Below, one piece after another: positions 7,474 through 40,385 of a stretch of DNA of 46,628 bases. The position numbers and the translations under genes were made by a program. The notes under the pieces are model-generated. The model saw nothing but the letters and a program-made list of their open reading frames with translations, was not told the DNA's origin and made no database searches. The stretch is from IMG/VR virus record IMGVR_UViG_3300003155_000137, positions 1-46,628 of that record; one strand, written 5' to 3'. This DNA comes from a virus. Taxonomy: Duplodnaviria; Heunggongvirae; Uroviricota; Caudoviricetes. Every line of letters begins with the position of its first letter. Position 1 is the stretch's first letter.

Positions 7474-8787
7474 TCACCTTTCACGACATCTTTCGGGTGG
7501 GGTTGGCATGAGCGCGACCGCGTGCCTGTCCCTCGTGTTGAGGGTGTACGCCCCGTTGTCGTCGGGGTCGGCGTAGCCGCGCCCTCCGGGTCCGTTGCCG
7601 GGGTCGCGGTCGATGGCGTTCCCCTGGATCTCCACGAGCCGTCCGCCGATGTCGGACAGTCCGTCATCCAGTCCACGGGGGGGGGTCTGGACGGAATCGG
7701 ACATGACCATCGGGACGTTGTTTCCGCCTGTTCCGGCGTGCGCCGTGATGGTCATCGACACGTCGGGCGTGTCCGACACCTTGGCCCTGCCGTCCTGCTG
7801 ATGGAAGTCCAATGCGACGTAGCTCTGCTGTTTCATGCCGGGATTCTCGGCCAACGCTCCGGGGACATCCATGACGGGAACCTCGTTGCGCTGATTCTGT
7901 GCGAACGCCACTGCGGTCGATACGGAAGTGTCCAGAGTGTTCATCACGTCGTCACGTTTGATTCCGAAACCGTTGGAGCCAGTGTTCGCCGTCTCGCACA
8001 GATAGATGCTCTGCTGGTTCTGCCCTGAGTTCGATCTCGCGGACAGCGCCGGGAAGACGCCATCGGAGGAATGCACGCGACGACTCTGGTTCTCGCCCGT
8101 GGTCAGGCATCCTCCGTCGTCGGTGTCTCCGTCTCTTCCTCCAGGACCGCTATCTGATTCTCCAGAGCGGCGCGAAGATTCTCCGGCAAGGGCTTTCCTC
8201 TTGTCTCGGCTCGACGAATAATCCCACGGCATGCCTTCGCGCTCAAATAATACTTCCGAGGAACGCATGGTTCCAAGGCTTCCGACAAGGAACAGACGCT
8301 CGCGTCGCTGGGCCACACCGAAGAACTGCGCATCCAGTACTCTCCATGCCAGACCATACCCGAGCGCGTCCATTTCGGACAGGAGTTGTCGGAAAGCGCC
8401 CCCGTGCTCGCTTGAGAGCGCGCCCGGGACGTTCTCCCAGACGAACCATCGAGGACGCACCTCACGAACGCATCGAATGTACTCGAACATGAGACCTGAT
8501 TCACCTTTGAGACCCTCCCTTTTTCCGGCCGTAGAGAATGACTGACATGGGCTACCTCCGAAAACGACGTCCACCTTGTCCACATACGGAGTCCAATCGA
8601 CCTTGGTGATGTCGCCAAGATTCGGGACATCAGGCCAATGGTACGCAAGAACCTCGGATGGGAACCTGTCGATCTCGCAGAAGGCCACCGGTTCCCAAGG
8701 CCCTCCATCAAGCGCCACCGAGACCGCCTCGATTCCGCTGAACAAGCTGATGTATCTCAATTTCCTGTTTTCCATGATGTCCATCAT
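7474..8787 (-). CDS. C5 cytosine methyltransferase, N-terminal part (motifs I-VIII plus repeats)
   Basis: SLFSGI, GGSPCQSFS, WENVPG, QRRERLFLVG. Confidence 0.92.
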   Translation of the reverse strand: MMDIMENRKLRYISLFSGIEAVSVALDGGPWEPVAFCEIDRFPSEVLAYHWPDVPNLGDITKVDWTPYVDKVDVVFGGSPCQSFSTAGKREGLKGESGLMFEYIRCVREVRPRWFVWENVPGALSSEHGGAFRQLLSEMDALGYGLAWRVLDAQFFGVAQRRERLFLVGSLGTMRSSEVLFEREGMPWDYSSSRDKRKALAGESSRRSGESDSGPGGRDGDTDDGGCLTTGENQSRRVHSSDGVFPALSARSNSGQNQQSIYLCETANTGSNGFGIKRDDVMNTLDTSVSTAVAFAQNQRNEVPVMDVPGALAENPGMKQQSYVALDFHQQDGRAKVSDTPDVSMTITAHAGTGGNNVPMVMSDSVQTPPRGLDDGLSDIGGRLVEIQGNAIDRDPGNGPGGRGYADPDDNGAYTLNTRDRHAVALMPTPPERCRER

Positions 8788-25485: not shown

Positions 25486-27849
25486 TCAGCGGGTCTCCTC
25501 CCACCAGTCGCGGGTGGTGCCATCCGCCAACGTGACATGGCCGGTCTCGCCGCTCATGTGCTTGACGCGGTGCGAGATCTCCTCGTGACGGCCGTGCACC
25601 ATCGGACGCTGCACCGGGTTGCCCAGGTAGCCGCAGGTGCGCTTGGTCACGTTGCACTTGTCCGGGTCGGAGTTGCCGCACTCGGGGCACTTGAAGCCCT
25701 CGTCGGTGGGTTCGAAGTCGCCCTGGAACCCGCAGACGAAGCAGTGGTCGATCGGGGTGTTGGTGCCCAGGTAGCCGATGCCGATGTTGTAGGCGTAATC
25801 CCACACGGCTTCGAGCGCCTTCGGATTGTCCTGCATACAGGGGAACTCGCAGTAGTTGATGAAGCCGCCGGAGGCGTAATACGGGAAGTTCTTCTCGAAG
25901 TCCAGTTTCTCGAACGGGGTCGGCTGCAACCACACCGGATAGTGGAACGAGTTGGTGTAGAAGTCGTGGTCGGTCACGCCATCGACGACGCCGAAGCGTT
26001 CGCGGTCCATGCGGTTGAAGCGGTCGGTCAGTGACTCCGCAGGGGTTGAATACACCGAGTAGTGGTAGCCCTCATCACTCTCCCACCGCTTGCACAGCTC
26101 GTTCATGCGACGAACGATGGATAGGGCGAAACCCTTGCCATCCTCATCCCAATGGTGGTCGGTGATCCAGTCCTTGCCGTAGAAGACTGCGGTCGTCTCG
26201 TACAGCCCTATGTAGCCGAGCGATATGGTGGCCCTGCCGTCCCTGAAGAGGCTGTCCACGCCGTCTCCGGGGTCGAGACGCCCTATGGCACCGTAGCGGT
26301 ACATGCTCGGGGCGTTGACCGGAGTGGCCTGTTTGCAACGCATGATGCGGAACTGTAACGCTTGGTGCGCCACGTCCATGCGTTCGTCGAACAGTCTCCA
26401 GAACCGCTCCTTGTCGCCGTGCGACTCCAAGGCGATTCTGGGGAGGTTCACGCTCACCACACCGAGATTCAGACGCCCGTCCTCGACGTCCTCGCCGGTC
26501 TCGGGGTCGGCCCAAGCCTGAAGGAAGGAACGGCAGCCCATCGGGGCCTTGAAGGAGCCGGTGATTCTGACGATGTTCTCATAGAAGACGATGTCCGGAT
26601 ACATGCGCTTGGTGGAGCACTCAAGCGCCAACTGCTTCATGTCGTAGTTCGGGTCGCCGGGATCGGCGTTGATGCCGTGCCTGATTGTGAACACGAGCTT
26701 CGGGAAGATGGCGGTCTGATGATCGGAGCCGAGACCCATGATTCTGTTGAGGAATATCGCCCTCTGAATCTCCCTTGCGAACCACGAGGTTCCCAGGCCG
26801 AAGCCGACGGTAACGAACGGGGTCTGACCGTTGGAGACGCGGTTGGAGTTGATCTGGTACTCCATGGTCTGCATGGCGTCGTAGATGGCCTTGCGGGTCC
26901 TGAGCTTCGCATACACCTCCCTGATGTCGTCAAGCTCGTCATCGTTATGGTGGAACGGCGCGTCCTCTGATTCCGGTATGTCGGGGCGGCCATCAGTGAA
27001 ATGGAGCGCCTTGCGCTCGTTGCGCTTCAGCGATTCAACGATCTCACGGGCGACCCGAACGTCCATGTCATCGGGGATGACGGCATGTGCGTCCTCAAGG
27101 GCCTTCTCGTAGTCGAGGCGCGCGTAACGCTCCAGCATCTCGTCGGCGCGGTTCACGGTCTGGCCTCCGTACTGGCAACCGGCGATGTCCTTGATGATCT
27201 GCGTGATCTGCGTGGCGGCGGTGCCGATGGACTTCGGGGAGTCCATCATCGCGTTGCCCAGCGCGAAGCCGTGGGCGAGCATGTCGCCGAAGTTCGGCAG
27301 CGAGCAGTTCGTCTCGGCGGTGAACGGGGAGTAGTCGAGGTCGTGGAAGTGGATGTCGCCCTTCCTGTGGGCGTTGGCGACCGCCGTCGGGAGCATGTTG
27401 AGCGCCATCGCCTTGGACACCGTGCCGGCCAGCAGGTCGCGCTGGGTGGCGTAGACGTTGGAGTCCTTGTTGGCGTTCTCGTGGGCTATGGACTCATCGC
27501 GGTTCATGAATCGGCTGACGGCCTCGTTCACGTCGGTCGACCTCGCGCGGTCGATGTCCCTGTTCAGGCGGTACTGCGTGTAGGCCCTGGCCACATCATA
27601 CAGATGGTTGTCGATCAGCGCGTGCTCGACGAGGTTCTGGATGTCCTCTATCCTGATGGGTTCGGTGAACCTGCCCGACGCCTCCGACTCGACCTCGCCG
27701 GACATGTCGTCGATCATCCTTGATTCCTGCGGTCCGATCTCCCTGCCGAGATCGCGGAACGCCGACGATATCGCTCTCCTTATGTTGTCCCTGTCGAAGT
27801 CGACGATACGACCGTCGCGCTTCTCGACGCGCATGGCCTCTTCCGTCAT
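25486..27849 (-). CDS. nrdD: anaerobic (class III) ribonucleoside-triphosphate reductase
   Basis: N-terminal ATP cone (VEKRDG..VDFD...I..AI), IHFHDLDY, MGCRSFL, KRTCGYLG glycyl-radical motif, CFVC..CPEC zinc site; RBS GAAAGGA. Confidence 0.97.
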   Translation of the reverse strand: MTEEAMRVEKRDGRIVDFDRDNIRRAISSAFRDLGREIGPQESRMIDDMSGEVESEASGRFTEPIRIEDIQNLVEHALIDNHLYDVARAYTQYRLNRDIDRARSTDVNEAVSRFMNRDESIAHENANKDSNVYATQRDLLAGTVSKAMALNMLPTAVANAHRKGDIHFHDLDYSPFTAETNCSLPNFGDMLAHGFALGNAMMDSPKSIGTAATQITQIIKDIAGCQYGGQTVNRADEMLERYARLDYEKALEDAHAVIPDDMDVRVAREIVESLKRNERKALHFTDGRPDIPESEDAPFHHNDDELDDIREVYAKLRTRKAIYDAMQTMEYQINSNRVSNGQTPFVTVGFGLGTSWFAREIQRAIFLNRIMGLGSDHQTAIFPKLVFTIRHGINADPGDPNYDMKQLALECSTKRMYPDIVFYENIVRITGSFKAPMGCRSFLQAWADPETGEDVEDGRLNLGVVSVNLPRIALESHGDKERFWRLFDERMDVAHQALQFRIMRCKQATPVNAPSMYRYGAIGRLDPGDGVDSLFRDGRATISLGYIGLYETTAVFYGKDWITDHHWDEDGKGFALSIVRRMNELCKRWESDEGYHYSVYSTPAESLTDRFNRMDRERFGVVDGVTDHDFYTNSFHYPVWLQPTPFEKLDFEKNFPYYASGGFINYCEFPCMQDNPKALEAVWDYAYNIGIGYLGTNTPIDHCFVCGFQGDFEPTDEGFKCPECGNSDPDKCNVTKRTCGYLGNPVQRPMVHGRHEEISHRVKHMSGETGHVTLADGTTRDWWEETR

Positions 27850-27892
27850 ATGTCGTCCTTTCATTCGGTTCTGTTGTTGTCGGTAGAACCCA

Positions 27893-27965
27893 ATCTTATA
27901 TCCACCGAGGCACATCCGAAGTCGACCGGACGCATTCCGATGATGCCGACGACGGACTAGAATTG
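27893..27965. promoter_or_regulatory. divergent -10 boxes for nrdD and the large virion gene
   Basis: TAAGATTG on minus (27898-27891) and TAGAATTG on plus (27958-27965). Confidence 0.5.
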
Positions 27966-28007
27966 GTGTATGAGTGCCCAGTCAATGGGGCGCGTGAACC
28001 GGTCGTC

Positions 28008-31000
28008 ATGAGCGAAGGGGTGTTTGTTTTGGCCGACATCTTCATCGGGGATACCTACGACTCACAATATTACGATGCGGTCGTGACACAGACCGACAAG
28101 GAGCGGCTGAAGACCAGGACGCAGGAGTGGATGTCGCGCCCGAGGGAGTCCGCGAGCTCGGTCGTCGAGATCCTCACATACGAGTTCGCGGACAGAGCGC
28201 CCATATCATCCATCGCGTTCGACGTCCTGTCCGTCGGTGCCGAGTATGAGATGTGGTACTACGATTCGGCCGGGACAAGGCTTCCGCTGCTGAGGGATGA
28301 CTACAACCAGATTCACTTCGTCGTGGAATCCGAAGAGGATTGGACGAGATGGCAGCACTGGGAGTTCCAGTGCATGGCGTGCGTGGCGACGAAGCTCGAG
28401 CTGAGGATGCGTCGCATCGACGACGATCTCGCCCCCGACAACGAGTACTCGCTCGGCGTGAGGAAGATGGCCATCAAGCGCCAGATCAATACGAGGGTGG
28501 ACGCGGCGCTGCCGTTGCAGGACACCACCGACATCCTCGGCAACATCGTGTCCAAGACCGTGTACGACTGGGATGCCAGATTCATGGCCGATGGCGAGGA
28601 CAACACGTTCTGGAAGTGCGAGCCGCAGATATCCCAGGATGCGGTCGTCTGCCTGTATCTCGACATCAGGGACAAATACGGCGAGCCGCAGTACTTCGAC
28701 TCGATCAACATCGACCCAGTCTACGCCGGTTCGCAGATGAACGTGTACTATTCCAACGACACCACGATGGGTGACCGCGTGCCGTCGCACTCATCGTATC
28801 CGGCGGCATACTCCGGATGCGAGTACACCACGGACAGCGCCACGGGCTGGAGGGACGGGGAGAATCCGCTCATCTCAACCGACCTGACGGCGGCCGAGAT
28901 GGACCTCGACGGAAGCTGGATGATAGGCGTGAGCTGGCTTCCGATGTCGCAGCCCTCCGGAACCACGACCATAGCGTCGATAGGCAGGAACTTCAGGCTC
29001 GACCTGAACGCCGACGATGGAAGACTCGAGTTCTGGTATCAGCATGACGGCGGGCTCGACCACATCGACATCGACATGCCGTGCGACGTCAAATACAGGC
29101 GCGGACTGCCGCAGGTGGACAACGTCGATTCCGAGATTCGCGTCGAGTTCGGCGTGGACAAAGGCGACGACGAACTCCTGCACATCAGGGTGAGGATGCT
29201 CAACTGGTACACGACGACCGGAGAGCTGATAGACCCGACCACCGACGACAAGCCGACCCACGAGGCCGGCGAGATCATCGACGACGAGACCGTGGTCAAG
29301 ACGGTCAGGACGGCCATGCAGATTTCCGCCATAGTTGACGGGGTGAAGAGCGGCGACGTGTCGGGCGCGTCGGTGAGGACGTTGTCGGATGGGATCGACA
29401 GCTCCACCGAGCTGGTGGTGGCCGGGCATTCATCCGTTGAGATACCGTTGTCGATACCGGAAGACATCGACCCGGTGTCGGGCGGCTATGACATCGACGT
29501 CGAACTGAACTACCGTACCGACGACGCCTATCTCGGAGGCGGCGAGCTCGTCATAGCCAATGGCGACGAGATCAAGAACGGATACACCTCATGGTGGTAC
29601 GGCACGCAGGGTGAGTCGCCATCAAGGATGAACATCGGCACCGACGGTCAGGTCACCAACTGGTTCCAGAACCCGGAGTTCTCGGCATCCGGCTCGTGGC
29701 AGCCGGACGAGACCACCGGAAACGGCACGGCCACGCTCACGGGCGGCTCGCTCAGGCTGAATGGGATGATCCGCGTCAGAAGCGTCGAGGCGTTGCCGTA
29801 TCAGGTCCCCGGAGGGCGGTACTACGTGTTTTCTGCGGTTCCCGAGTTCTCCGGCGTCGATTCGCTGTACAAGAGCTACTCGCTCTTCGTCTATGACGGG
29901 AGGAGCGAGACCTATGTGGCGTTCGCCGACGGTATGCCGGTTTCCGGCGGGAGGGTCGAACTGAGATTCTTCATGCCGGACGACCCATCGCTCATATCAT
30001 TGGGATTCGTCGGAGGCTCGGAATCCGGTGACGTTGTCACATGGCGCGACCCCATGCTGTGCGAGGCGGACGATTGGGCCACGCTTGAGAGTCACGGTGT
30101 CGACTACTTCTCCGGCGACACATACAGGCGGACCGGTGACGTCATAGAGCGCTACAGTCAGGAGCTCAACCCGAATCCGAGGAACAGAGAGGACCTTCCG
30201 CTCATCGGTGAGGTCGTGCATCCGTCGTTCTGCCAGAAACGCTCGTTCAACTCGGACATCGTCAAGATAAATCCGTATCTCAATACCTACGACATACCGC
30301 AGATCGACTGGTGGATACCGGCCAAGGGCGGCAGCTCGTTCACGTTCTCGTTCTGGTGCATATCGAGGAAGGCGTGGTCGCAGCTTCAGCCGGTCATGCT
30401 CGACACCAAGGGCAACATGTACTGGCCCGACCGTTACCAGTACTCGGAGGGCGAGGGTGGATGGCGGCTCGTGTACGCCCGCGTCTCCATACCATCCGAC
30501 CACGAGCCGGACATGATGACCTTCGGAATCTACGAAAGGGCGACCGATGCGTTCTCCTATCTTGGGGAGATGCATGTCTACGATAACTCGGCCGCGTTCG
30601 AGGAGCCGGAGCCATACACCGTGGCGTCGGCGTCAAGGAGATTCTCCGCATCGCTGTCGACCGGTTCGCTGTCGGGACTCAAGGTGCTGGTGAGGAACTC
30701 CGACGCCAATCCCATCTACGTCGAATCATGCTCGGTCAGGGCCGTTGCGAGACGTGTGTCGGACCTGCCGGACGCGACCGCATCGTTCTCGTGGACCCAC
30801 GGAACGCTGAGGAACGTCGTGGTCAAGCAGGAGGGCATCCCGGACGAGGACAGGGACAGGTTCCTTCAGAATCCCGACATCTACACGTCACCGGACTCAT
30901 ACGACGTCTCATCGACATTGTTCAACGCCCTGCTGTACGGAAGGTTCTCGTATGAGCAGACGCTGAGGGGAGGGGTGGCCGACTCCGCATTCGACGCCAA

Positions 31001-33296
31001 GGTGTGGACCCCGATACTGACCGGTGCCACCCTCGAACGCACCAGATACACGATGCCGACACCGACCCAGGCTAGGTTCGTCAAGCTGGAGTTCTCCCAG
31101 CTCACGCCACAGCAGTACCCGATAGAGTCGCCGTACATATCGTCCACCTACCGCGTGTTCCCCGTGGAGCAGACACGGGAGATGCTCCAGCGGGCCAACG
31201 CCGACGAGACTGTGAGGAACGGACGACAGACCGTCGACTCGTATTACGGCAACACGCTCACCGCAAGGCAGAGCGCCTATTATGCATCGACCGACCTCGG
31301 CAACCCGACGCGCTCGGGCGACAGGAGGTCGCTGTACGACAATCCGGACGCCGAGGTGCTGACGTCCAGCGACACCGGCGACTACGACGCCAGGCTGTCG
31401 GGGACGTCCATCGCCGACGCCACGAGGACGGAGACCACGTCATCGACATTGCTCAACACGGTGGGCACATCGACCGCAGTGGCGTCGTCGGGGGCGGGGC
31501 TGTCCAGATTGTCCACGGCGGCGCAGGAGAACGCCAGATACATGATATACACCGCCCAGGCGTCCGAGACGCTGATCGCCATTGCCAGACGGTACGATCT
31601 GGCCGACTGGAGACTCATACGTCAGGTCGACGGATACGTGGACGACAAGTCGGACAGGACGGCGATATCGGGAAGGGTCCCCGGATACTGGGTGCTCCCC
31701 GGACAGCAGCTCCTCATACCGGTCGGTCAGGTCAGGCAGGTGACGGGAACCTCGAAGATCGACACCATCGACAGGGTGGCGACCAAGCAACCGCTCACGT
31801 CCATCGTGGACATCAGGACGCCGATACCGACGCTCACCACGAACGGCCCGAAGTACTTCAGCCAGACATCCGTCCACAGCTACGAGTACCGCACGGAGAG
31901 AAGAACGCAGTCCATAGCGTACTTCGTCGCAATCCGCGAGCTTTCCGTCGACATCGTCGACTACTTGCAGGAGCGCGACAACGTGTCGTGGAACTTCTAC
32001 TCGATGGCGATGCCGGTATGGCATCTCGACGGCGGATACCTGACGACCCAGGAGGTGTTCGTCCCCGACCTCTCCACCGGAAGGGGCGTGGCGGTCGCCG
32101 AGACCGACGTGATGCATTCGCAGTCCTACTACAGGACGTGCAAGTACATTTCCGTCAACCGCGACAGCCTGATGAACAGGACGTACTTCTCGTTCGAGGG
32201 CGAGGCGTGGCACGGCCCCGAATACTGGGATCAGCACCCCGAGCTGAACTGCGTGTGGGATGACTCGACGCCGGACAACCCCGACGTCTATGAGGACAAT
32301 GGCGGAGCATGGAACTCCAGAAGATTCGCATGGGGAGACACATGGAGCGGCACGATAGTCCCCGGACACACCGACGACGTATGGTATGACGGCGAACTCG
32401 TCAAGCACATCGTCGTGAACCCCGAGGACAGGGTCTTCGACGCCGACGGCAACCAGCAGCCGTATGTGTATCACCTCGGTGAAATCTATGTTCCCAGCAA
32501 CTCGCTTGCTGTGCTCGGCGCGTCACTGTTCTCGCTGAAGACGGCGAACCCGAACAGGCCGGACCATCATCTTGAGACGCGGCTCCAGCTCGTTTCCGGA
32601 AGGTGGTCGAACGACCCGATGATAGACGAGGTGGTCGGGTTCGACGACACCAAGATCGGCATATGGCAGAACGTGACCACGTCGAGACACCACCTCCTCG
32701 ACATGCAGTACAAGTGCGACGTGTACCTGTACTTCAACGACTTCGAGCGGCTCGACCTGTATGCAAAGAGCATGTATCTTGAGCTTGGAACCATGCGCAT
32801 CCTCCAGAAGAACAACGTCAACCTCGACTGGGAGGACGTCACGTCGGCCGTCGGCAGGGCGGATTCCGAATACACCTTCAGGACGACCGGTCACGACCTC
32901 CAGCTCCGCGTCGAGATGTACGACCCTCAGGACTGGTTCAGCCAGATCATCGTCGTCCCGATTTACATTCCGCAGGAGGATGCTGTTGATACGACGTCAT
33001 CAATTGTCCACGACGTATCGCTTGTGCAGAATGATGGTGCCGGGTCGGCGATACCGGTATCAGGATATGTGGGCAACAGCTTCTCAGTAGGTGTCAGAGT
33101 CCACTATGCTACGGGGGCCGAATCAGGAATCATCGTTGACGGCGCGCACTTCTACTCATCCGACGAATCCGTCGTCACATTCTCAGTGTCAGGAAACGTT
33201 ACGACGATGAGATTTATTGGAGTCGGCGACGCAGAGGTGTGGGGGGAGTATGGGGGCATAACAAGCGAACGGGTGTCCATGCATGTAACCCATTAG
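28008..33296 (+). CDS. large multidomain virion (tail/baseplate-type) protein; start 28008 (ATG) or 28029 (TTG)
   Basis: ~1750 aa, beta-sandwich/CBM-like segments, LysM-like segment (YTAQASETLIAIARRY...LPGQQLLIP) and C-terminal Ig-like domain. Confidence 0.6.
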   Translation: MSEGVFVLADIFIGDTYDSQYYDAVVTQTDKERLKTRTQEWMSRPRESASSVVEILTYEFADRAPISSIAFDVLSVGAEYEMWYYDSAGTRLPLLRDDYNQIHFVVESEEDWTRWQHWEFQCMACVATKLELRMRRIDDDLAPDNEYSLGVRKMAIKRQINTRVDAALPLQDTTDILGNIVSKTVYDWDARFMADGEDNTFWKCEPQISQDAVVCLYLDIRDKYGEPQYFDSINIDPVYAGSQMNVYYSNDTTMGDRVPSHSSYPAAYSGCEYTTDSATGWRDGENPLISTDLTAAEMDLDGSWMIGVSWLPMSQPSGTTTIASIGRNFRLDLNADDGRLEFWYQHDGGLDHIDIDMPCDVKYRRGLPQVDNVDSEIRVEFGVDKGDDELLHIRVRMLNWYTTTGELIDPTTDDKPTHEAGEIIDDETVVKTVRTAMQISAIVDGVKSGDVSGASVRTLSDGIDSSTELVVAGHSSVEIPLSIPEDIDPVSGGYDIDVELNYRTDDAYLGGGELVIANGDEIKNGYTSWWYGTQGESPSRMNIGTDGQVTNWFQNPEFSASGSWQPDETTGNGTATLTGGSLRLNGMIRVRSVEALPYQVPGGRYYVFSAVPEFSGVDSLYKSYSLFVYDGRSETYVAFADGMPVSGGRVELRFFMPDDPSLISLGFVGGSESGDVVTWRDPMLCEADDWATLESHGVDYFSGDTYRRTGDVIERYSQELNPNPRNREDLPLIGEVVHPSFCQKRSFNSDIVKINPYLNTYDIPQIDWWIPAKGGSSFTFSFWCISRKAWSQLQPVMLDTKGNMYWPDRYQYSEGEGGWRLVYARVSIPSDHEPDMMTFGIYERATDAFSYLGEMHVYDNSAAFEEPEPYTVASASRRFSASLSTGSLSGLKVLVRNSDANPIYVESCSVRAVARRVSDLPDATASFSWTHGTLRNVVVKQEGIPDEDRDRFLQNPDIYTSPDSYDVSSTLFNALLYGRFSYEQTLRGGVADSAFDAKVWTPILTGATLERTRYTMPTPTQARFVKLEFSQLTPQQYPIESPYISSTYRVFPVEQTREMLQRANADETVRNGRQTVDSYYGNTLTARQSAYYASTDLGNPTRSGDRRSLYDNPDAEVLTSSDTGDYDARLSGTSIADATRTETTSSTLLNTVGTSTAVASSGAGLSRLSTAAQENARYMIYTAQASETLIAIARRYDLADWRLIRQVDGYVDDKSDRTAISGRVPGYWVLPGQQLLIPVGQVRQVTGTSKIDTIDRVATKQPLTSIVDIRTPIPTLTTNGPKYFSQTSVHSYEYRTERRTQSIAYFVAIRELSVDIVDYLQERDNVSWNFYSMAMPVWHLDGGYLTTQEVFVPDLSTGRGVAVAETDVMHSQSYYRTCKYISVNRDSLMNRTYFSFEGEAWHGPEYWDQHPELNCVWDDSTPDNPDVYEDNGGAWNSRRFAWGDTWSGTIVPGHTDDVWYDGELVKHIVVNPEDRVFDADGNQQPYVYHLGEIYVPSNSLAVLGASLFSLKTANPNRPDHHLETRLQLVSGRWSNDPMIDEVVGFDDTKIGIWQNVTTSRHHLLDMQYKCDVYLYFNDFERLDLYAKSMYLELGTMRILQKNNVNLDWEDVTSAVGRADSEYTFRTTGHDLQLRVEMYDPQDWFSQIIVVPIYIPQEDAVDTTSSIVHDVSLVQNDGAGSAIPVSGYVGNSFSVGVRVHYATGAESGIIVDGAHFYSSDESVVTFSVSGNVTTMRFIGVGDAEVWGEYGGITSERVSMHVTH

Positions 33297-34441
33297 TCAT
33301 CTACGCAGGACAGCGTCGACCTGAGATTGTGATTCCTGGAATATCTTTTCAGGTCGACGCCAGTCATGATTGCATACCCGATGCCCTCACTTGACAGAAA
33401 TTCAGATGCCGCTTTCGCCTTTGCCACAACAACCGGATCATCTACCAGTCTGTCATCTTTCGTCTCAATCACAATACGGCTTCCGTCGACCATATCAACG
33501 CTGAAATCGGGAAAATACACCTTGTCAACTCCTTCCATTGAATAGATGATCTTTATCCCACATCTATGAAAATCTGCAATCGAAACGTCCTCCTTTGCGC
33601 TTCTACAGAATGAGGATTCGTAAGATGATGCACAGAACACACTGTCCCCACTCTTATTTGTCTCCCATGACCTGCGACCTCTAATATTGTGTTCGTTCTC
33701 CCATTTCACCCACCCATCAGCATCGAGTGACGAGAAGAATGCATGCATCCGATCAGATATCAACTTCTTATACTCTGGGTGCTCACGATATCTTTTCAGT
33801 TGCGCATCTCTTTGTGATTTTCGGTACTTGTCCGTTTTCGCAATTTTAGAGAACGTCTTTAGCCTTTTCTCTCTCGACTCTTTCGTACAAATCGTTTCAT
33901 TGGCGTGTCTTCTCATTTTCTCAACGAAATCATGGTCGCGCATTCTTGCTTCTCTTCTATCGGCAAGCCTTCTTACAACATCTTGGTTGTGCATCACGGT
34001 CATGTGTTGTCGTAATGCCGGTTCAGTAATGCAATTCTTGCCACAGACAGAACACTGAAACAATCCGTATTTGGTGAGATGTGACATTCTTATGTGTATC
34101 ATCAGCGAGCGTTTGCTTTTAAAGATAGCGCCGCAATGATTGCACACGCTCTCTACACACCCTTCACTGTGCGTGAGCATATGTCTTTTCAGTCCCGGCC
34201 TGCTTGCAAAGGATTTTCCACATTCTTCACATACAACCTTGTTGTCATCGTCGCGCTTGTCCTTATTGTGAGTCATGGTCATGTGATATCTGAGTGACCT
34301 TACACACTTAAAGGTTCTTCCGCACAGGTCACAGGTGCTGCAATTGTCAGAGTGCATCATCCTGTGCAAAGTGAGCGACTGCTTTTTAGGAAAGGTGCGA
34401 CCACACACATCGCACACAAACTTATCGTCATTTTCACCCAT
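33293..34441 (-). CDS. five-C2H2-finger protein fused to TnsA-like PD-(D/E)XK endonuclease (homing-endonuclease-like)
   Basis: Five Cx2Cx12Hx3-4H fingers; C-terminal S.YE...YFPDF...IETK; markedly AT-richer than flanks; leaderless start 7 nt after TATGAT. Confidence 0.8.
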   Translation of the reverse strand: MGENDDKFVCDVCGRTFPKKQSLTLHRMMHSDNCSTCDLCGRTFKCVRSLRYHMTMTHNKDKRDDDNKVVCEECGKSFASRPGLKRHMLTHSEGCVESVCNHCGAIFKSKRSLMIHIRMSHLTKYGLFQCSVCGKNCITEPALRQHMTVMHNQDVVRRLADRREARMRDHDFVEKMRRHANETICTKESREKRLKTFSKIAKTDKYRKSQRDAQLKRYREHPEYKKLISDRMHAFFSSLDADGWVKWENEHNIRGRRSWETNKSGDSVFCASSYESSFCRSAKEDVSIADFHRCGIKIIYSMEGVDKVYFPDFSVDMVDGSRIVIETKDDRLVDDPVVVAKAKAASEFLSSEGIGYAIMTGVDLKRYSRNHNLRSTLSCVDD

Positions 34442-34477
34442 AAAATCAATCATACCAAAACTGCCACCACAGTGGCA

Positions 34478-34807
34478 GTGCCACATGAGGACAGCGTAAA
34501 CTGGTCATCCGACTTCATCCACGAGCTCGAACTCGTCCAGGCCGACACCGCCGGTTCGGCCATACCGGTGAACGGAAGGCAGGGTGCCCAGTACGCCTTG
34601 GCGGTCAGGGCGACCTATGGGGACGGTACGTCATCCGGAGTGATAACGGAGGGCGTCTCCTATTGGACGTCCGACCCCGACGTGCTTCTCGTGAGGGATT
34701 CGTCCGGGAAGAAGGCGCTGCTGTTCGCCGGCCCCGGAGACGCGACCATCACCGCGACATACAAAGGTGCCACGTCATCGCCGATATCAATCCATGTGAC
34801 CCAGTAG
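34478..34807 (+). pseudogene. displaced original 3' end (Ig-like domain) of the large virion gene
   Basis: VPHEDSV...IHELELVQADTAGSAIPVNG...ISIHVTQ aligns with IPQEDAV...VHDVSLVQNDGAGSAIPVSG...VSMHVTH at 32967-33296; no evident own start. Confidence 0.65.
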
Positions 34808-34825
34808 GAGGAAGGCGGCATCGGT

Positions 34826-35266
34826 TCACGACACCAGGTCGATGCCGTCGTACCTGCGCTCCAGCTCCTCGGCTATGTCGTCCATCCTCTTCGACTTGCC
34901 GGGGTCGCCTATGGTGCGCGCGCCCTTCGCAAAAGAGCGGTACATCCTCGCCAGCCTGTCCACGTCGTGCTGGACGTCGACGATGGCGAGTCTCGCCGAC
35001 GTCATCTCCGGCGTGGCGTCCATCTCATCCAATTCACGGAGGGCGACGGCCCACTCGAACCTCCATCGGTTCAGCTCGTCCTCGCAGATCATCTCCCTGC
35101 GCCTCCAAGGGGTGCCCCACCTGATGATGTTCTCCTCGTCCTTGGGGCTGAACAGCACGATGGAGTCCCTGTCGTCGTCCCTCGTCCTTGCGTCATACGA
35201 CAGCGGTCTTCCGTGACCGGTTCCCCTCCCCTTGCGTCCTCCGCGTCCACGAGACATCAGAACCAT
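34826..35266 (-). CDS. hypothetical protein
   Basis: RBS GAAAGG, helical basic/acidic sequence. Confidence 0.55.
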   Translation of the reverse strand: MVLMSRGRGGRKGRGTGHGRPLSYDARTRDDDRDSIVLFSPKDEENIIRWGTPWRRREMICEDELNRWRFEWAVALRELDEMDATPEMTSARLAIVDVQHDVDRLARMYRSFAKGARTIGDPGKSKRMDDIAEELERRYDGIDLVS

Positions 35267-35339
35267 CGCCTTTCCGAACCGAACATCGCCATAAACAACC
35301 TTCTACGGTCACAATACCACCGGACCCCGACAGCCACGA

Positions 35340-36060
35340 CACGCCGATGTCCATCTTGGCATGTATATCTTTACACTGGGGTAATGGGTACCCGCGCCGC
35401 ATGGGATGCATTCGCCCAATCATTCCCCTTCGGGGGAGTAGGAGGGAGCGGGTGGGGTAGGCGGTGTGATGCAGGGTTCCATGAGATGAACATGATGCAT
35501 GTGGTATGCAATCCATGTGGCGGTATTCATGAAATGAATGATGAAGCGCGTTCCATACCCATATCGCATGGGTGTGGTATCCACGATGGAGTGAACCATG
35601 GGTGGAGCCATGAGGCATGTCATGAAGCGAATCGTGAAGTCGATGAAGCGTAACATCGATGTCCGATATCGCAATCAATCACGCAATCAATGGGTATCGC
35701 AACCGATGACCGATTACGTAGTCCATCATTCGGTGGTGTGATTCCATGATGTGGATGACATCGGATGATGTACATGTGAATCATGAACCAGCATGTGTGA
35801 ATCCATGACCGTGATCGATGAACCGTCATAACTGACTTCAGTGAACGACCATCATGGAATCCATGAGTGAATCCGTGTGATGAACCATCATCATGAACCA
35901 TCATGAGTGGATGATGTGCAACCATCATGTTCGATTGATGTCCATCAACCTGCATCAGGGCATGTTCGGCCATGTCTCTACATGTACCCGGTCCATGAAT
36001 CCACCGGTTCCACCAAGGGAGGGGTCCGTCGCCGCCACGGTTTCCATGATGCGTATACGT
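35340..36060. repeat. CATG-saturated low-complexity non-coding region
   Basis: 27 CATG counted by eye in ~700 nt; recurrent TGAA(C/T)C(A/G)T units. Confidence 0.7.
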
Positions 36061-36744
36061 GGCCGGTTCCTCCGTAGAGACGTCCCGAGAGGCATCCGAA
36101 CGGATGCACGGCCGGATCGCCGTTCAGGTCGGCGCACCCGAACCCAGGCGTCATGGTGACGCCGGACCGGCACGGTCGATGTGACCGCCGAAGTGGCCCG
36201 TGATGGTGCGGAGAATGCTTCCGGTCCCTCCTCGGACAGGGCGCATAGCGGGGTCCCTGTCCCTTTTCGCCGCCGCGTCGTCTCACGACGATGCATGTGG
36301 CGGCTACTGTCCATCACGTCCACGCCGGCCCTGACACCTACCGTCCGAGCAGTCACGCCTTGATGATCCGGGCAGAGTCGTTCGGCCTATGGACGGGTGG
36401 GTCTCGACCACCCTGCGGTTCGGCCGGTGACGGACGCCCTATACGCCGCGATTCCGTATGCATGCCGCTTCATGTACGGTTCGCGTCGCCGGATCGGGTC
36501 CGGCGGTCGGGTTCCGCCAAGAGGCCCGGATTGGGCCGGTGGTGCCGGGTTCCCCGCGCTGGTGCGCGCTGTGAACCTCCGTGGGCCTTCGTCCACGGTC
36601 GGATGCGCGAACATCCGATGGAACCGGAGTGTAGCACAAGGACCCGCCATAGGGAAATGCGTTTCGGTTATGGCTGGGACGCTGATATGCCTCACGGGTA
36701 TCGCACCTCGTTTTCGATGTCTGCGGAGTGTCCTATAATTGGAT

Positions 36745-37071
36745 GTGTGCGCGGAGGACGATGCCGCGCGGGAAGGCTGGCCCGGTATGAGATACGACGA
36801 CACGCTCCAGGCATGGGTCATGGATGGCTCTGAGGCCCCGGAGTGCCCCATGTGCGGTGCGCTGCTGGAGATGGGGTGGAACGACTGCCGGTGCGGCCTT
36901 GAACTGAACGTCGAGACCATCAGGTCCGACGAGGGAGTCGTGACGCTGGTGACGCAGGAGCACGACGAGATGAGGGAGCTGAGGGAGCGTGTCGAGGGCG
37001 GAACGCCGTCATGGGGCGCTGGCGTCGCTGATGCGTCGTCTGCTGCCGGCCAGCAGGTCGCGCTCCTCTAG
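36745..37071 (+). CDS. small zinc-ribbon protein (start 36745 GTG or the ATG of MRYDD)
   Basis: CPMC...CRC; TATAATTG at 36734. Confidence 0.55.
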   Translation: MCAEDDAAREGWPGMRYDDTLQAWVMDGSEAPECPMCGALLEMGWNDCRCGLELNVETIRSDEGVVTLVTQEHDEMRELRERVEGGTPSWGAGVADASSAAGQQVALL

Positions 37072-37093
37072 GCGAACGAACGGAAGGAAACGG

Positions 37094-37543
37094 ATGTCTT
37101 TCAGGACCATCAGGCCAGAGGATGAGATCGACCCCAAGGCGAGGCTGTTCGTGGTCAACAACAGCGCGTCGAACAAGAAGCTGTCGTGGAACGGGGGAAG
37201 CTGCATGCTCAGCGCCCCCGGCTCCGAGGGCAGCATTCAGCCGCTCAATCACGAGCTGCTGTCCAACCCGCACTTCGTGGCCATGTGGGCGGATGGCCGC
37301 GTCCTCGTGACCGATTCCCCGTCGGCGCAGCGTTCGGCGATCTCCGACATCGCCATCCGCAACAGGGAGAAGGCCAGGCGCGACTCCGAACTCAAGCGCA
37401 TGGTGGTGGAGGACGTGTCCGGCTCCGACGACCCGAACGCCAAGGCCGAGGACGTGAGCTACAAGGCGAAGCGGATCGCCTCCGACGTCTCCAACGACCC
37501 CGTGGTCGTATCGGCACCCGGACTCCCCGAGGCGGATGACTGA
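37094..37543 (+). CDS. hypothetical protein preceding portal
   Basis: RBS GAAGGA; tightly coupled to portal gene. Confidence 0.65.
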   Translation: MSFRTIRPEDEIDPKARLFVVNNSASNKKLSWNGGSCMLSAPGSEGSIQPLNHELLSNPHFVAMWADGRVLVTDSPSAQRSAISDIAIRNREKARRDSELKRMVVEDVSGSDDPNAKAEDVSYKAKRIASDVSNDPVVVSAPGLPEADD

Positions 37544-37545
37544 CG

Positions 37546-39096
37546 ATGGCGCTGTTCGGCAGGGGACGTGACCGTGAGGAGAGGCGGAGGCTGGGTTCGT
37601 CCTCGATAGGCAGGAACAACAGCGTGAGGACCGCCTCCACCAATATCGTCGTGAGGCCCCGCGACGAGGAGCAGACGTTCCTCAAGGAGTCCGGAAACTG
37701 GCTCGACGTCGACAACGCCGAGGACAGGCGCGAGCTCCGCGACAAGATACGTCGCTACTCCATGTACAACGACGCCATGAACGTGGTCATCACACTGACC
37801 TCGATGTTCGCGTCATCCGGCCCCAAGATCGTATGCGAGGACGCCCAGAACGAGGCGGTGCTCAACGAGTACTTCGAGTCGCACGGCATGGCCGAGTTCC
37901 TGTACGAGTTCATCAGGGAGTATCTGATATCCGGGGAGGCCACCAGCTTCGCGTCGTGGGACGAGGACGGCATGTGCCTCACCGACGAGCAGATACTCGA
38001 CCCCGACCAGATAGAGGTCACGCCCTCCCTGTGGAAGGACGACGACCACATCGTCATCGCGCCGCCGGACGCGGTGGCCGAGGTGTTCATGGACGAGAGC
38101 AACCCGGACCACTACGAGGCCGTGTCCGAGATGCCCGAGCTCTACGAGGCCATATCGGCCGGAAAGCCGCTTCGCGTCGACGACGAGAAGATCATCCGCA
38201 TCGTCAACCGCGCGAAGCCGTGGGACAGATACGGGACCCCGATGTTCACCCCGGCGCTTTCGGCCCTCGTACAGGAGGAGGCCCTCGACGCCGCCCTGTA
38301 CGAGCAGCTCTACACGCTGATAACGCCGACCATCATCGGCACCGTCGGATTGAAGGCCGGGGAGCTTGGCCCGAACAGCTCGCCGTGGGTTCCGACGCAG
38401 GACCAGCTCGACCAGATAGCCGAGACGTACCGCAACATGATGATGGCGAGGTTCAGGCTCGGCCTGTTCACCATCGGCGTGGATTTCAAGAACGCATTCG
38501 CCAATGCGCAGATTCCCGACCTATCGAAGGACTACGCGAGGTGCGAGCAGAAGATCCTCCGCTGCGTCGCGGCCGGCAAGGGCCTTCTCGACGGCTCCTC
38601 CGGTGGCCCGTGGGCGTCCGGCGCGCTGAACCGCGACGTGTACGCCTCGGTCATCCAGTTCATCCGCGACAAGGTGTCCCACGCCTTCCAGAAGCGCATC
38701 GACACCGTGATACACAGGCTGGGCATCGTGGCGTACCGCCCCAACGACGACGGTGAGCGGGTGCGCGTCCTGACCGAGGATGGGAAGCCCGTGTACGAGA
38801 CGGCCTTCCTGGACTTCGACCACGGCGTCATGAGGAACGCCAACGACCAGATGGACGTCCTCATCAAGCTCGCCGACAAGGGCGTGCCCATCTCGTGGCA
38901 GACGCTCGCCGACTCCGCCGAGTCCGGCATCCAGGTTGCCGAGGAGATACGGTCCCTGAAGGACGAGCAGGACCTCCAGAAGAAGGTCGGCATGGAGACC
39001 GACCCGATCATCGAGGCGAGGGAGCGGCTGTCCGGAGGGGATGCCGACGAGGACGACGCCGAACCCAGAAGCCCGTTGAACATCGACGCGATGTGA
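37546..39096 (+). CDS. portal protein
   Basis: 516 aa; E.LYEFIREYLISGEAT, EQILDPDQIEV, PWDRYGTP pattern and size fit portal proteins of large actinophages. Confidence 0.7.
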   Translation: MALFGRGRDREERRRLGSSSIGRNNSVRTASTNIVVRPRDEEQTFLKESGNWLDVDNAEDRRELRDKIRRYSMYNDAMNVVITLTSMFASSGPKIVCEDAQNEAVLNEYFESHGMAEFLYEFIREYLISGEATSFASWDEDGMCLTDEQILDPDQIEVTPSLWKDDDHIVIAPPDAVAEVFMDESNPDHYEAVSEMPELYEAISAGKPLRVDDEKIIRIVNRAKPWDRYGTPMFTPALSALVQEEALDAALYEQLYTLITPTIIGTVGLKAGELGPNSSPWVPTQDQLDQIAETYRNMMMARFRLGLFTIGVDFKNAFANAQIPDLSKDYARCEQKILRCVAAGKGLLDGSSGGPWASGALNRDVYASVIQFIRDKVSHAFQKRIDTVIHRLGIVAYRPNDDGERVRVLTEDGKPVYETAFLDFDHGVMRNANDQMDVLIKLADKGVPISWQTLADSAESGIQVAEEIRSLKDEQDLQKKVGMETDPIIEARERLSGGDADEDDAEPRSPLNIDAM

Positions 39097-40342: not shown

Positions 40343-40385
40343 CAATGGTGGTTTACTTGTACCCTCATAGGTGTATAATGAGGGT

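What the first reader, a model, noticed from the sequence alone, without database searches (positions are those of the whole stretch)
33293..34441. Natural zinc-finger-nuclease architecture: five tandem C2H2 fingers plus a PD-(D/E)XK nuclease
Fingers read CDVC-12-HRMMH, CDLC-12-HMTMTH, CEEC-12-HMLTH, CNHC-12-HIRMSH and CSVC-12-HMTVMH, with the conserved F and L of Kruppel-type fingers in the first four. They are followed by a basic helical linker and a TnsA-like domain (S.YE, YFPDF, IETK). Tandem classical C2H2 arrays are a hallmark of eukaryotic transcription factors and rare in prokaryotes; a DNA-binding finger array fused to a restriction-like nuclease mirrors engineered ZFNs. Its low GC, antisense orientation and own leaderless promoter fit a free-standing homing endonuclease. 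Novelty needs a database check.
Basis: partly seen in the sequence, partly recalled or inferred. Interest (0 to 1): 0.85.

Follow-up and report, generated by a model that had tools for sequence, protein, structure and literature searches.

The report
Zinc-finger homing nuclease swapping tail tip
A chicken-gut phage carries a selfish DNA-cutting gene built from five classical zinc fingers and a transposase-type nuclease, and this gene moves between phages together with a replacement end for the tail gene it sits in, leaving the old end stranded beside it.

Summary
ORF 33293-34441(-), open to 34486, encodes five C2H2 fingers (Pfam E 1e-22), a roughly 100-aa basic helical linker and a TnsA-like PD-(D/E)XK nuclease. 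The nuclease scores above the Pfam cut-off, and a high-confidence model matches TnsA at Z 11.6. The E, PD and ExK residues are invariant across the family.

The homing-endonuclease reading is supported by population data.
- Eight related contigs have an uninterrupted tail gene ("empty" site).
- Three others carry an IS607-type insertion a little further downstream and also lack the cassette.
- Three lineages carry a 1.5-kb cassette at exactly the same point. It consists of a replacement 3' domain of the minor-tail gene plus the nuclease gene. The ancestral 3' domain lies displaced downstream at 34498-34807.
- The cassette has sharp boundaries. Two cassette lineages are 61-72% identical while their flanks are 90-95% identical.
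- Its GC is low (45% against 59%).
- The nuclease gene is under purifying selection.
- Cassette carriers are not monophyletic on their flanks.

This matches the "mobile ORF plus C-terminal replacement" elements of fungal mitochondria, here in a phage and with a new nuclease and DNA-binding combination. Cleavage, target site and finger specificity are untested.

This scan had already noted four paralogues elsewhere in the same genome. The family is tiny and I found no paper describing it. I class it as a new variant of a known kind.

The parts
27720..33296 (+). Giant minor-tail-protein gene. The ORF is up to 1858 aa and the true start is uncertain. It is now a hybrid: a resident body plus a cassette-borne last domain.
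   Evidence: ORF. phrog_2840 'minor tail protein' at E 2.5e-73. Orthologues of 1758-1795 aa in L001, L019-L021.
32987..33296 (+). Cassette-borne replacement 3' domain of the tail gene (about 103 codons plus stop). GC is 0.53.
   Evidence: Homology to the empty allele L021 ends at 32986. It is 41% aa identical to the displaced resident domain. It is 76% aa identical between the window and L002, while the upstream gene body is 98%. It is closer to the C-domain of the 44%-GC relatives than the resident domain is.
33293..34441 (-). Zinc-finger nuclease gene, 382 aa from the conserved ATG. The frame stays open to 34486, whose ATG lies on the insertion junction.
   Evidence: The conserved start is supported by L002's ORF start and by 1-nt indels just upstream. 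dN/dS is 0.12 against L001.
33986..34420 (-). Five tandem C2H2 fingers (aa 23-167 of the 397-aa frame).
   Evidence: Pfam zf-C2H2 E 1.2e-22 and zf-C2H2_4 with 5 stretches. The AF2 model shows a beta-beta-alpha pattern, pLDDT 64-80. dN/dS is 0.14.
33689..33985 (-). Basic, all-helical linker (aa 168-266).
   Evidence: Helices 168-266 in the model. No significant Pfam match and NUMOD3 not matched. dN/dS is 0.18.
33296..33688 (-). TnsA-like PD-(D/E)XK nuclease domain (aa 267-397). Putative catalytic residues are E290, D327, E341 and K343.
   Evidence: PF08722 at 30.7 bits against a 26.5 cut-off. The family profile hits TnsA structures at E 2e-6 and 5e-4. Model pLDDT 91.8. Best PDB match is 1t0f_A TnsA: Foldseek E 5e-6 and TM 0.71, VIA Z 11.6 over 120 aa. 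dN/dS is 0.012.
34442..34480 (-). Cassette's own 5' control region. It holds a -10-like hexamer (34454-34449) 7 nt before the ATG, and an 8-bp hairpin followed by a T-run (34479-34460).
   Evidence: Consensus scan and sequence. The hexamer and its spacing are conserved in the window, L001 and L002 despite about 61% identity around it. Function is not shown.
32970..32986 (+). Left copy of the junction repeat (about 17 bp, core CAGGAGGA). It is the crossover zone between resident gene and cassette.
   Evidence: In blastn the window segments 27001-32986 and 34481-38000 overlap by 17 bp on the empty allele L021, positions 7761-7777. Alignment A3.
34481..34497 (+). Right copy of the junction repeat.
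   Evidence: The same overlap is seen in all empty alleles.
34498..34807 (+). Displaced ancestral 3' domain of the tail gene. It has no start codon of its own and its frame is still intact. GC is 0.62.
   Evidence: It is contiguous with the gene body in the empty alleles L021 and L025-L031. It is 90-92% aa identical to the copies in L001 and L002. dN/dS is 0.14-0.22, against 0.06-0.11 among intact alleles.
34826..35266 (-). Conserved flanking gene orf146. It served as the anchor for finding alleles.
   Evidence: Its 90% cluster has 70 members. Contexts.

Best explanation
Window 32987-34497 is a 1.5-kb mobile cassette of the 'free-standing homing endonuclease plus replacement gene end' type.

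**Components.** The cassette encodes a site-specific nuclease on the minus strand. The nuclease has five C2H2 fingers for DNA recognition, a basic helical linker and a TnsA-like PD-(D/E)XK catalytic domain. On the plus strand the cassette carries a diverged substitute for the last ~100 residues of the phage's giant minor-tail protein.

**Proposed mechanism (inferred).** During co-infection the nuclease cuts the cassette-free allele at or near the boundary between the tail-gene body and its last domain. The break is repaired from the cassette-bearing genome. Homology in the gene body serves on one side, and the resident last domain plus orf146 on the other. This copies in the substitute domain and the nuclease gene. 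The tail gene stays intact because it now ends in the imported domain. The target is destroyed because the boundary sequence is split between two junctions. The old domain is left as an untranslated relic.

**Origin (inferred).** The cassette probably came from a lower-GC relative of this phage group.

**What is shown.** The architecture, fold and catalytic residues, the exact insertion site, the presence/absence polymorphism, the mosaic boundaries and the purifying selection are shown.

**What is inferred.** Cleavage, the target site, the role of the fingers, and expression from a leaderless promoter are inferred.
For: **Architecture.**
- C2H2 fingers plus PF08722.
- The nuclease model has pLDDT 91.8 and matches TnsA best: Z 11.6 and TM 0.71, against Z 8.2 for the next fold.
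- The family profile hits TnsA crystal structures with the E, PD and ExK motifs aligned.
- These residues are invariant in nine relatives.

**Mobility.**
- Empty alleles L021 and L025-L031 join window 32986 directly to 34481 with a 17-bp overlap.
- L022-L024 also lack the cassette.
- The cassette sits at the identical site in three lineages: the window, L001 and L002.

**Independent evolutionary unit.**
- Between the window and L002 the flanks are 90-95% nt identical and the cassette 61-72%, with boundaries at the insertion points.
- GC is 0.45 in the nuclease gene and 0.53 in the imported domain, against 0.62 in the displaced domain.

**Horizontal spread.**
- On both flanks the cassette-bearing L001 groups with the empty L030, away from the window (support 96/94 and 96/98).
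- Each displaced domain resembles local empty alleles.

**The gene is functional.** dN/dS is 0.12 overall and 0.012 in the nuclease domain.

**Other support.**
- The genome holds four further TnsA-like paralogues, one of them inside a DnaE intein. One paralogue is flanked by a 22-aa duplicate.
- The cassette is found in at least 14 runs from about 6 studies. Contigs bridge both junctions.
- There is precedent: mORF elements with C-terminal replacement in Allomyces and Glomus mitochondria (PMC3630166).
Against: - No biochemical evidence exists for cleavage or sequence-specific binding.
- TnsA itself does not act alone in Tn7, so autonomous double-strand cutting by this domain is an assumption.
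- The finger contact residues (K/Q/S/L, C/R/S/Y, S/P/G/R, S/R/S/I, T/P/A/Q) and the non-canonical linkers give no readable site. The fingers could therefore have another role.
- The displaced copy keeps the whole resident-domain sequence. In L002 homology to the empty site extends about 8 nt further left at the right junction. Immunity of carriers therefore needs a target that reaches well into the gene body, or else polymorphisms.
- General phage recombination could also produce mosaic boundaries and polyphyly.
- The contigs of the four runs laid showed no empty allele beside the filled one.
- Only three cassette lineages are known.
Confidence: 0.72

Rival explanations
1. The cassette is an ordinary mosaic module exchanged by general homologous recombination between co-infecting phages, that is, tail-tip allele swapping selected for adsorption or host range. 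Under this view the nuclease gene is a passenger (moron) with another job. That job might be excluding competing phages or degrading host or foreign DNA. The nuclease does not drive the cassette's own transfer.
For: - The imported domain changes the tip of a tail protein (41% identity to the resident one), which could be selected in its own right.
- Flanking polymorphisms are highly mosaic in all alleles, so recombination is frequent here.
- Another element (IS607-type resolvase plus TnpB) lies a few bases away in other phages, so the spot tolerates insertions.
Against: - The nuclease gene and the imported domain always co-occur and share boundaries and low GC.
- The family includes an intein-borne copy and other copies placed like homing endonucleases in the same genome.
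- A pure tail-tip swap would replace the old domain, not leave it duplicated beside a nuclease gene.
Confidence: 0.17
2. The protein is a DNA-binding regulator. The five fingers bind phage or host promoters, and the TnsA-like domain is catalytically dead or serves only for oligomerisation.
For: C2H2 arrays are classic transcription-factor modules. No activity data exist.
Against: - The E, PD and ExK residues are invariant in nine relatives.
- The nuclease domain is the most constrained part of the gene (dN/dS 0.012).
- Presence/absence polymorphism and duplication of the gene end are not expected for a regulator.
Confidence: 0.05
3. It is a remnant or component of a Tn7-like transposon (a TnsA homologue working with TnsB and TnsC).
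For: The best sequence and fold match is TnsA.
Against: - There is no rve/TnsB-type transposase anywhere in the 137-kb genome.
- The TnsA C-terminal domain is absent: the domain ends at aa 397, and the match covers only TnsA residues 39-176.
- There are no transposon ends. The insertion is bounded by homology to the host gene and not by terminal repeats.
Confidence: 0.01

Closest known systems
Mobile ORF (mORF) elements with C-terminal replacement in fungal mitochondria (Allomyces macrogynus atp6; Glomus atp6, atp9, cox2, nad3; PMC3630166)
   Same: A free-standing endonuclease gene is inserted near the 3' end of a host gene. It brings a diverged in-frame substitute C-terminus and leaves the native C-terminus downstream. 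The native copy resembles close relatives and the inserted copy is far more divergent, which points to horizontal origin.
   Different: - The host here is a dsDNA phage tail gene, not a mitochondrial respiratory gene.
- The nuclease is a C2H2-finger plus TnsA-like PD-(D/E)XK protein, not LAGLIDADG or GIY-YIG.
- The nuclease gene lies on the opposite strand and is not fused in frame.
- The substituted domain differs at 59% of its residues, so the protein product changes.
Free-standing phage homing endonucleases (T4 Seg and Mob proteins, F-CphI) and modular HEGs such as I-TevI
   Same: These are intergenic or gene-end nuclease genes of large phages. They are polymorphic among relatives, occur as multiple paralogues per genome and have low GC. 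They combine a catalytic domain with a separate DNA-binding module through a long linker. They spread by break repair with co-conversion of flanks.
   Different: - Their catalytic domains are GIY-YIG or HNH, and their DNA-binding modules are NUMOD, HTH or a single Cys4 zinc finger.
- No tandem C2H2 array or TnsA-like domain has been described for them.
- This statement rests on my own knowledge and on literature searches that found none.
Tn7 TnsA (PDB 1f1z, 1t0f)
   Same: It is the best sequence and fold match for the nuclease domain. The E, D and (Q/E)xK catalytic positions align.
   Different: There is no TnsA C-terminal domain, no TnsB or TnsC partner and no transposon ends. The protein is fused to a DNA-binding array and presumably acts on its own.
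PD-(D/E)XK-fold homing endonucleases I-Ssp6803I and I-Bth0305I (Vsr-like, EDxHD)
   Same: They are restriction-fold nucleases recruited for homing. The I-Bth0305I catalytic domain is a weak structural match (Z 6.4).
   Different: They belong to different subfamilies: PF11645 and Vsr-like, not PF08722. They are intron- or intein-associated and have no C2H2 fingers.
Engineered zinc-finger nucleases (C2H2 array plus FokI cleavage domain) and R2-type retrotransposon proteins (C2H2/Myb plus RT plus restriction-like endonuclease)
   Same: The design logic is shared: a C2H2 array that should give specificity is joined to a restriction-fold nuclease. R2 proteins appear as weak fold matches (E 0.035-0.25).
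   Different: - The nuclease is not FokI-like.
- The finger linkers are 6-12 residues long and non-canonical.
- There is no reverse transcriptase.
- The origin is prokaryotic-viral.

Membership tests
C2H2 zinc finger (PF00096 / PF13894) | C-x2-C-x12-H-x3-4-H spacing, repeated | tested here: met
   Five repeats are read in the translation. Pfam gives E 1.2e-22 and 1.3e-20, above the cut-offs.
C2H2 zinc finger (PF00096 / PF13894) | Beta-beta-alpha fold with conserved hydrophobic F and L | tested here: met
   DSSP on the AF2 model shows a strand-strand-helix unit for each finger at moderate confidence, pLDDT 64-80. F and L are present in fingers 1-4. Finger 5 has C in place of F.
C2H2 zinc finger (PF00096 / PF13894) | Zinc binding and sequence-specific DNA contact | not testable with these tools
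   This needs metal analysis and a binding assay. Recognition-helix residues of fingers 2 and 3 are identical between the 66%-identical P0001 and P0003, which is only suggestive.
TnsA-like PD-(D/E)XK nuclease (PF08722) | Score above Pfam's gathering threshold | tested here: met
   28.2 bits for the whole protein and 30.7 bits for the domain alone, against a 26.5 cut-off. All 9 family members match at E<=0.1, best E 6.9e-09; scanned as whole proteins, two of them score below the cut-off.
TnsA-like PD-(D/E)XK nuclease (PF08722) | Catalytic E ... PD ... (E/Q)xK residues in register with TnsA | tested here: met
   The HMM alignment to the PseTnsA and Tn7 TnsA chains aligns SSyE, YnPDF and vEvK with the TnsA motifs. 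These residues are invariant in A4.
TnsA-like PD-(D/E)XK nuclease (PF08722) | Restriction-endonuclease-like fold closest to TnsA | tested here: met
   1t0f_A gives Foldseek E 5.3e-6 and TM 0.71, and VIA Z 11.6 with rmsd 3.6 over 120 aa. The next fold scores Z 8.2.
Tn7-like transposon (TnsA as a transposase subunit) | Partner TnsB (rve) and TnsC, the TnsA C-terminal domain, and transposon ends | tested here: not met
   There is no rve match in the whole 137-kb genome. The protein ends with the catalytic domain. The insertion is bounded by homology to the host gene.
Homing endonuclease gene (functional class) | Presence/absence polymorphism at one precise site among close relatives | tested here: met
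   There are three filled lineages (window = L019/L020, L001, L002). Eight contigs are empty (L021, L025-L031) and L022-L024 also lack the cassette. All share the same junction.
Homing endonuclease gene (functional class) | Insertion splits the sequence present in the empty allele, which gives self-immunity | tested here: inconclusive
   The boundary sequence is divided between two junctions. The actual recognition site is unknown, and the displaced copy keeps the resident-domain sequence.
Homing endonuclease gene (functional class) | The encoded nuclease cleaves the empty allele and promotes its own transfer | not testable with these tools
   This needs cleavage and homing assays.
mORF-type cassette with C-terminal replacement | Inserted C-terminus diverged, and native C-terminus retained downstream and resembling relatives | tested here: met
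   The inserted and native domains are 41% aa identical. The native copy is 90-95% nt identical to the empty alleles. The inserted copy is nearer to the 44%-GC relatives.
NUMOD3 DNA-binding motif (PF07460) | Significant match in the linker | tested here: not met
   The linker of P0001 gives no match. Two paralogues give E 0.25 and 1.1, far below the cut-off.
Canonical poly-zinc-finger array (Zif268/Krueppel type, as used in engineered ZFNs) | TGEKP-type 7-residue inter-finger linkers that allow continuous major-groove wrapping | tested here: not met
   Linkers read are SDNCST (6), NKDKRDDDNKVV (12), SEGCVESV (8) and LTKYGLFQ (8).

The most novel reading that the evidence does not exclude
This would be a natural, modular zinc-finger nuclease acting as a gene drive in phage populations. 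Its five C2H2 fingers specify a roughly 15-bp site at a domain boundary of a tail gene. Each homing event would force a different tail-tip domain onto the recipient phage, imported from a lower-GC phage lineage. A selfish nuclease would then directly reshape adsorption or host-range determinants. If the fingers are individually swappable, as the 1- to 5-finger paralogues suggest, the family would be a natural counterpart of engineered ZFNs with a compact monomeric nuclease head.
Probability: 0.3. Interest if true: 0.85.

Novelty: new variant of a known kind. Interest (0 to 1): 0.7.

Why it matters
- **Wider repertoire.** It would extend homing endonucleases to a TnsA-type nuclease guided by a tandem classical C2H2 array. 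That DNA-binding module is regarded as typically eukaryotic and is the basis of engineered ZFNs.
- **New setting for a known strategy.** It shows, with population data, that the "bring your own gene end" strategy of fungal mitochondrial mobile ORFs also works in large phages. Here it exchanges the tip domain of a tail protein, so selfish spread and phenotypic change of the virion are coupled.
- **A test case for modularity.** One phage lineage has paralogues with one, two, three or five fingers, or a zinc ribbon instead, and one copy sits inside an intein. This offers a natural series for asking how finger number and identity set target specificity.
- **Practical interest.** A small, possibly monomeric, finger-guided nuclease could be useful as a tool.

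Tried and rejected
- **Exhaustive HMMER search with the whole protein.** It was swamped by eukaryotic poly-zinc-finger proteins (60,408 hits) and told nothing about the nuclease. In hindsight the job should have used the C-terminal half.
- **Searches of 50,697 sequenced phage genomes.** There was no match by DNA. With the whole protein and a limit of E 1e-3 there was no match either. With the nuclease domain and a limit of E 10, the best hit was a Bacillus phage Moonbeam 'endonuclease' at E 0.06.
- **Word-indexed searches with the C-terminal region and with a family profile.** They found only 2 and 6 proteins. All come from this phage group.
- **IMG/VR scans.** An exact-pattern scan for the conserved tail-gene segment found nothing. 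A scan with orf146 also found nothing.
- **NUMOD3 in the linker.** Not supported.
- **Tn7-like transposon reading.** Rejected.
- **Haloarchaeal virus idea.** I first suspected this from the acidic proteins and the DUF7xxx hits. I dropped it because the samples are chicken gut and the portal resembles those of large actinobacteriophages at about 26% identity.
- **Predicting the target from the finger contact residues.** Too few informative residues, so I did not attempt it formally.
- **Expression.** No RNA holder was listed.
- **Co-occurring empty alleles.** Contigs from four runs were laid on the locus. No contig joined across the cassette (contigs only).
- **Displaced domain as a pseudogene.** There are no stops or frameshifts in any lineage and only a slight rise in dN/dS. 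This fits recent insertion. It does not show decay.

Full report
**1. What is there**

The window is the first 46.6 kb of a 137,417-bp IMG/VR virus record rated complete. The samples that hold it are chicken-gut metagenomes. Its portal protein resembles those of large actinobacteriophage myoviruses at about 26% identity.

ORF 33293-34486(-) translates to a 397-aa frame. Pfam finds zf-C2H2 at E 1.2e-22, zf-C2H2_4 with five stretches, and Tn7_TnsA-like_N above its gathering score.

- The most divergent homologue (L002) begins its ORF there.
- Natural 1-nt indels occur just upstream of it.
- The first ATG of the open frame (34486) lies on the insertion junction itself.

**2. The nuclease domain**

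I aligned nine family members: three orthologues, four paralogue lineages and the copy inside the DnaE intein. E290, P326-D327-F328, E341 and K343 are invariant.
- All nine match PF08722.
- The family profile hits TnsA crystal and cryo-EM chains at E 2e-6 and 5e-4, with the three motifs in register.
- An AlphaFold model of aa 267-397 has pLDDT 91.8.
- Its best PDB match is TnsA: Foldseek E 5e-6 and TM 0.71, VIA Z 11.6 over 120 residues.
- That is clearly above VRR_NUC (8.2), Vsr (7.3) and the I-Bth0305I catalytic domain (6.4).
- The genome has no rve/TnsB homologue. The domain is therefore TnsA-like, but the gene is not part of a Tn7-type transposon.

The linker (aa 168-266) is predicted to be all-helical. 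It does not match NUMOD3.

**3. The cassette**

The last 98 residues of the giant upstream gene are 41% identical to the peptide encoded at 34502-34804(+), just beyond the nuclease gene (E 7e-26). The giant gene is phrog_2840, a minor tail protein.

I used the conserved neighbour orf146 as an anchor. Its 90% cluster has 70 members. I fetched related contigs through it.
- **Empty alleles.** In L021 and L025-L031 the tail gene runs uninterrupted and stops 18 nt from orf146, with no nuclease gene.
- **Junction.** blastn shows window 27001-32986 and 34481-38000 abutting on L021 with a 17-bp overlap. Every empty allele has the same junction.
- **Ancestral end.** The segment 34498-34807 is therefore the ancestral 3' end of the gene. 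The insert is about 1.5 kb and consists of a substitute last domain plus the nuclease gene on the opposite strand.
- **Another element nearby.** L022-L024 lack the cassette. They carry an IS607-type resolvase plus TnpB between the tail gene's stop and orf146.

**4. Evidence that the cassette is an independent, mobile unit**

(a) Identity between the window and L002 is 95% in the gene body. It drops to 72% in the substitute domain, 71% in the nuclease domain, 66% in the linker and 61% in the fingers. It returns to 90-94% in the displaced domain and orf146. The breaks fall at the insertion points (protein level).

(b) GC is 0.45 in the nuclease gene and 0.53 in the substitute domain. It is 0.62 in the displaced domain and 0.59 genome-wide.

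(c) The substitute domain is closer to the last domain of 44%-GC relatives than the resident domain is (37-42% against 27%). Those relatives (L010-L014) have a single last domain and no nuclease. This suggests the cassette was imported from a lower-GC lineage.

(d) On both flanks the cassette-bearing L001 is sister to the empty L030 (support 96/94 and 96/98) and not to the window. The cassette has either spread between backgrounds or been lost precisely.

(e) The displaced domains are intact. They look like local empty alleles, with only slightly raised dN/dS (0.14-0.22 against 0.06-0.11). This fits recent insertions.

(f) The nuclease gene is under purifying selection: dN/dS is 0.14 in the fingers, 0.18 in the linker and 0.012 in the nuclease domain.

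(g) The cassette occurs in at least 14 runs from about six studies spanning 2014-2025. Contigs bridge both junctions.

**5. Family context**

The same genome holds four other TnsA-like paralogues:
- one with three fingers;
- one with two fingers;
- one at 62099-63031, with a CxxC-type zinc-binding N-terminus that gave no Pfam zf-C2H2 match;
- one inside the DnaE intein, with a zinc ribbon.

The paralogue at 62099-63031 is also flanked by a short duplicated coding segment. A 775-aa protein in the window (40371-42695) combines C2H2 fingers with a different homing-endonuclease/HNH-type C-terminus.

Outside this phage group, word-indexed searches of 5.8 billion proteins found only six relatives. 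Sequenced phage genomes gave none. ESM Atlas feature search lists uncultured-virus clusters of TnsA-like proteins. In single clusters a fifth of the members carry a Di19-type zinc finger (PF05605) and a tenth carry NUMOD3. These are leads only.

This scan had already noted the four paralogues (e1-1676769), the primase-end duplication (e1-1676770) and this cassette reading (e1-5418020). I checked the parts that bear on this locus myself.

**6. Mechanism**

The most likely mechanism is homing by double-strand-break repair. The nuclease cuts the empty allele near the body/last-domain boundary. Repair from a carrier genome copies in the substitute domain and the nuclease gene. The tail gene stays functional with a new tip, and the boundary sequence is split between two junctions.

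All three carriers share the left-flank variants Ile and Gln just upstream of the divergence point, as does the empty L030. This is compatible with short co-conversion tracts, but the evidence is weak.

A -10-like hexamer lies 7-8 nt before the ATG. It is conserved in all three lineages and there is no Shine-Dalgarno sequence. This fits a leaderless transcript, which is common in Actinobacteria (my own knowledge). It is unproven.

The target site cannot be read from the fingers. Their contact residues are mostly small or hydrophobic, and the inter-finger linkers are non-canonical.

**7. Comparison and novelty**

The mode of insertion matches the mobile ORFs with C-terminal replacement of fungal mitochondria (PMC3630166; see also PMC6279837). 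The protein design matches modular free-standing phage homing endonucleases, but with a nuclease (PF08722) and a DNA-binding module (tandem C2H2) that are not described for them. Literature searches found no such report. The 2012 survey of the PD-(D/E)XK superfamily lists TnsA only as a transposase (PMC3424549).

I therefore rate it a new variant of a known kind. It rests on solid comparative evidence and no biochemistry.

Noticed in passing
window 40371-42695 (+): A 775-aa protein has N-terminal C2H2 fingers, several zinc ribbons and a C-terminus matching phrog_3339 'homing endonuclease' and phrog_559 'HNH endonuclease'. It is present in the window, L019 and L020. It is absent at the same place in L021 and L022 and is replaced by a TnpB gene in L001. 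C2H2 fingers are thus used with at least two nuclease types in this phage group.
   Followed up: partly
L022 7494-9625, L023 3917-5958, L024 495-2626: An IS607-type element (serine resolvase plus a 516-aa TnpB) sits between the tail gene's stop and orf146 in phages that lack the zinc-finger cassette. The same few bases are a repeated landing place for different mobile elements.
   Followed up: no
window 35500-36000: This is a second low-GC patch (0.45-0.49) with odd His-rich ORFs on both strands. The segment 35545-35880 is the only part of the neighbourhood that aligns poorly with the 94%-identical relative L001 (72% over 194 bp).
   Followed up: no
G000 61951-62016 and 63034-63099 (outside the window): The paralogous nuclease gene at 62099-63031 is flanked by a 22-aa coding duplicate that is 73% identical.
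   Followed up: partly
window 34460-34479 (-): An 8-bp GC-rich hairpin followed by TTTTGG lies just inside the cassette's right end, upstream of the -10-like box. It is conserved in L001 with a changed loop but not in L002. It could insulate the nuclease gene from read-through out of orf146.
   Followed up: partly
L030/L031 junction (equivalent to window 32955-32990): These empty alleles carry the same left-flank variants (Ile, Gln codons) as all cassette carriers, while the other empty alleles have Leu and His/Arg. They may be the ancestral background, or a product of cassette loss or partial co-conversion.
   Followed up: partly
run X2 on window 32300-35300: One 2019 metagenome run holds this phage locus at a contig word depth of about 9,000, against about 10-19 in the other runs. 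This suggests a bloom or an enriched virome.
   Followed up: no
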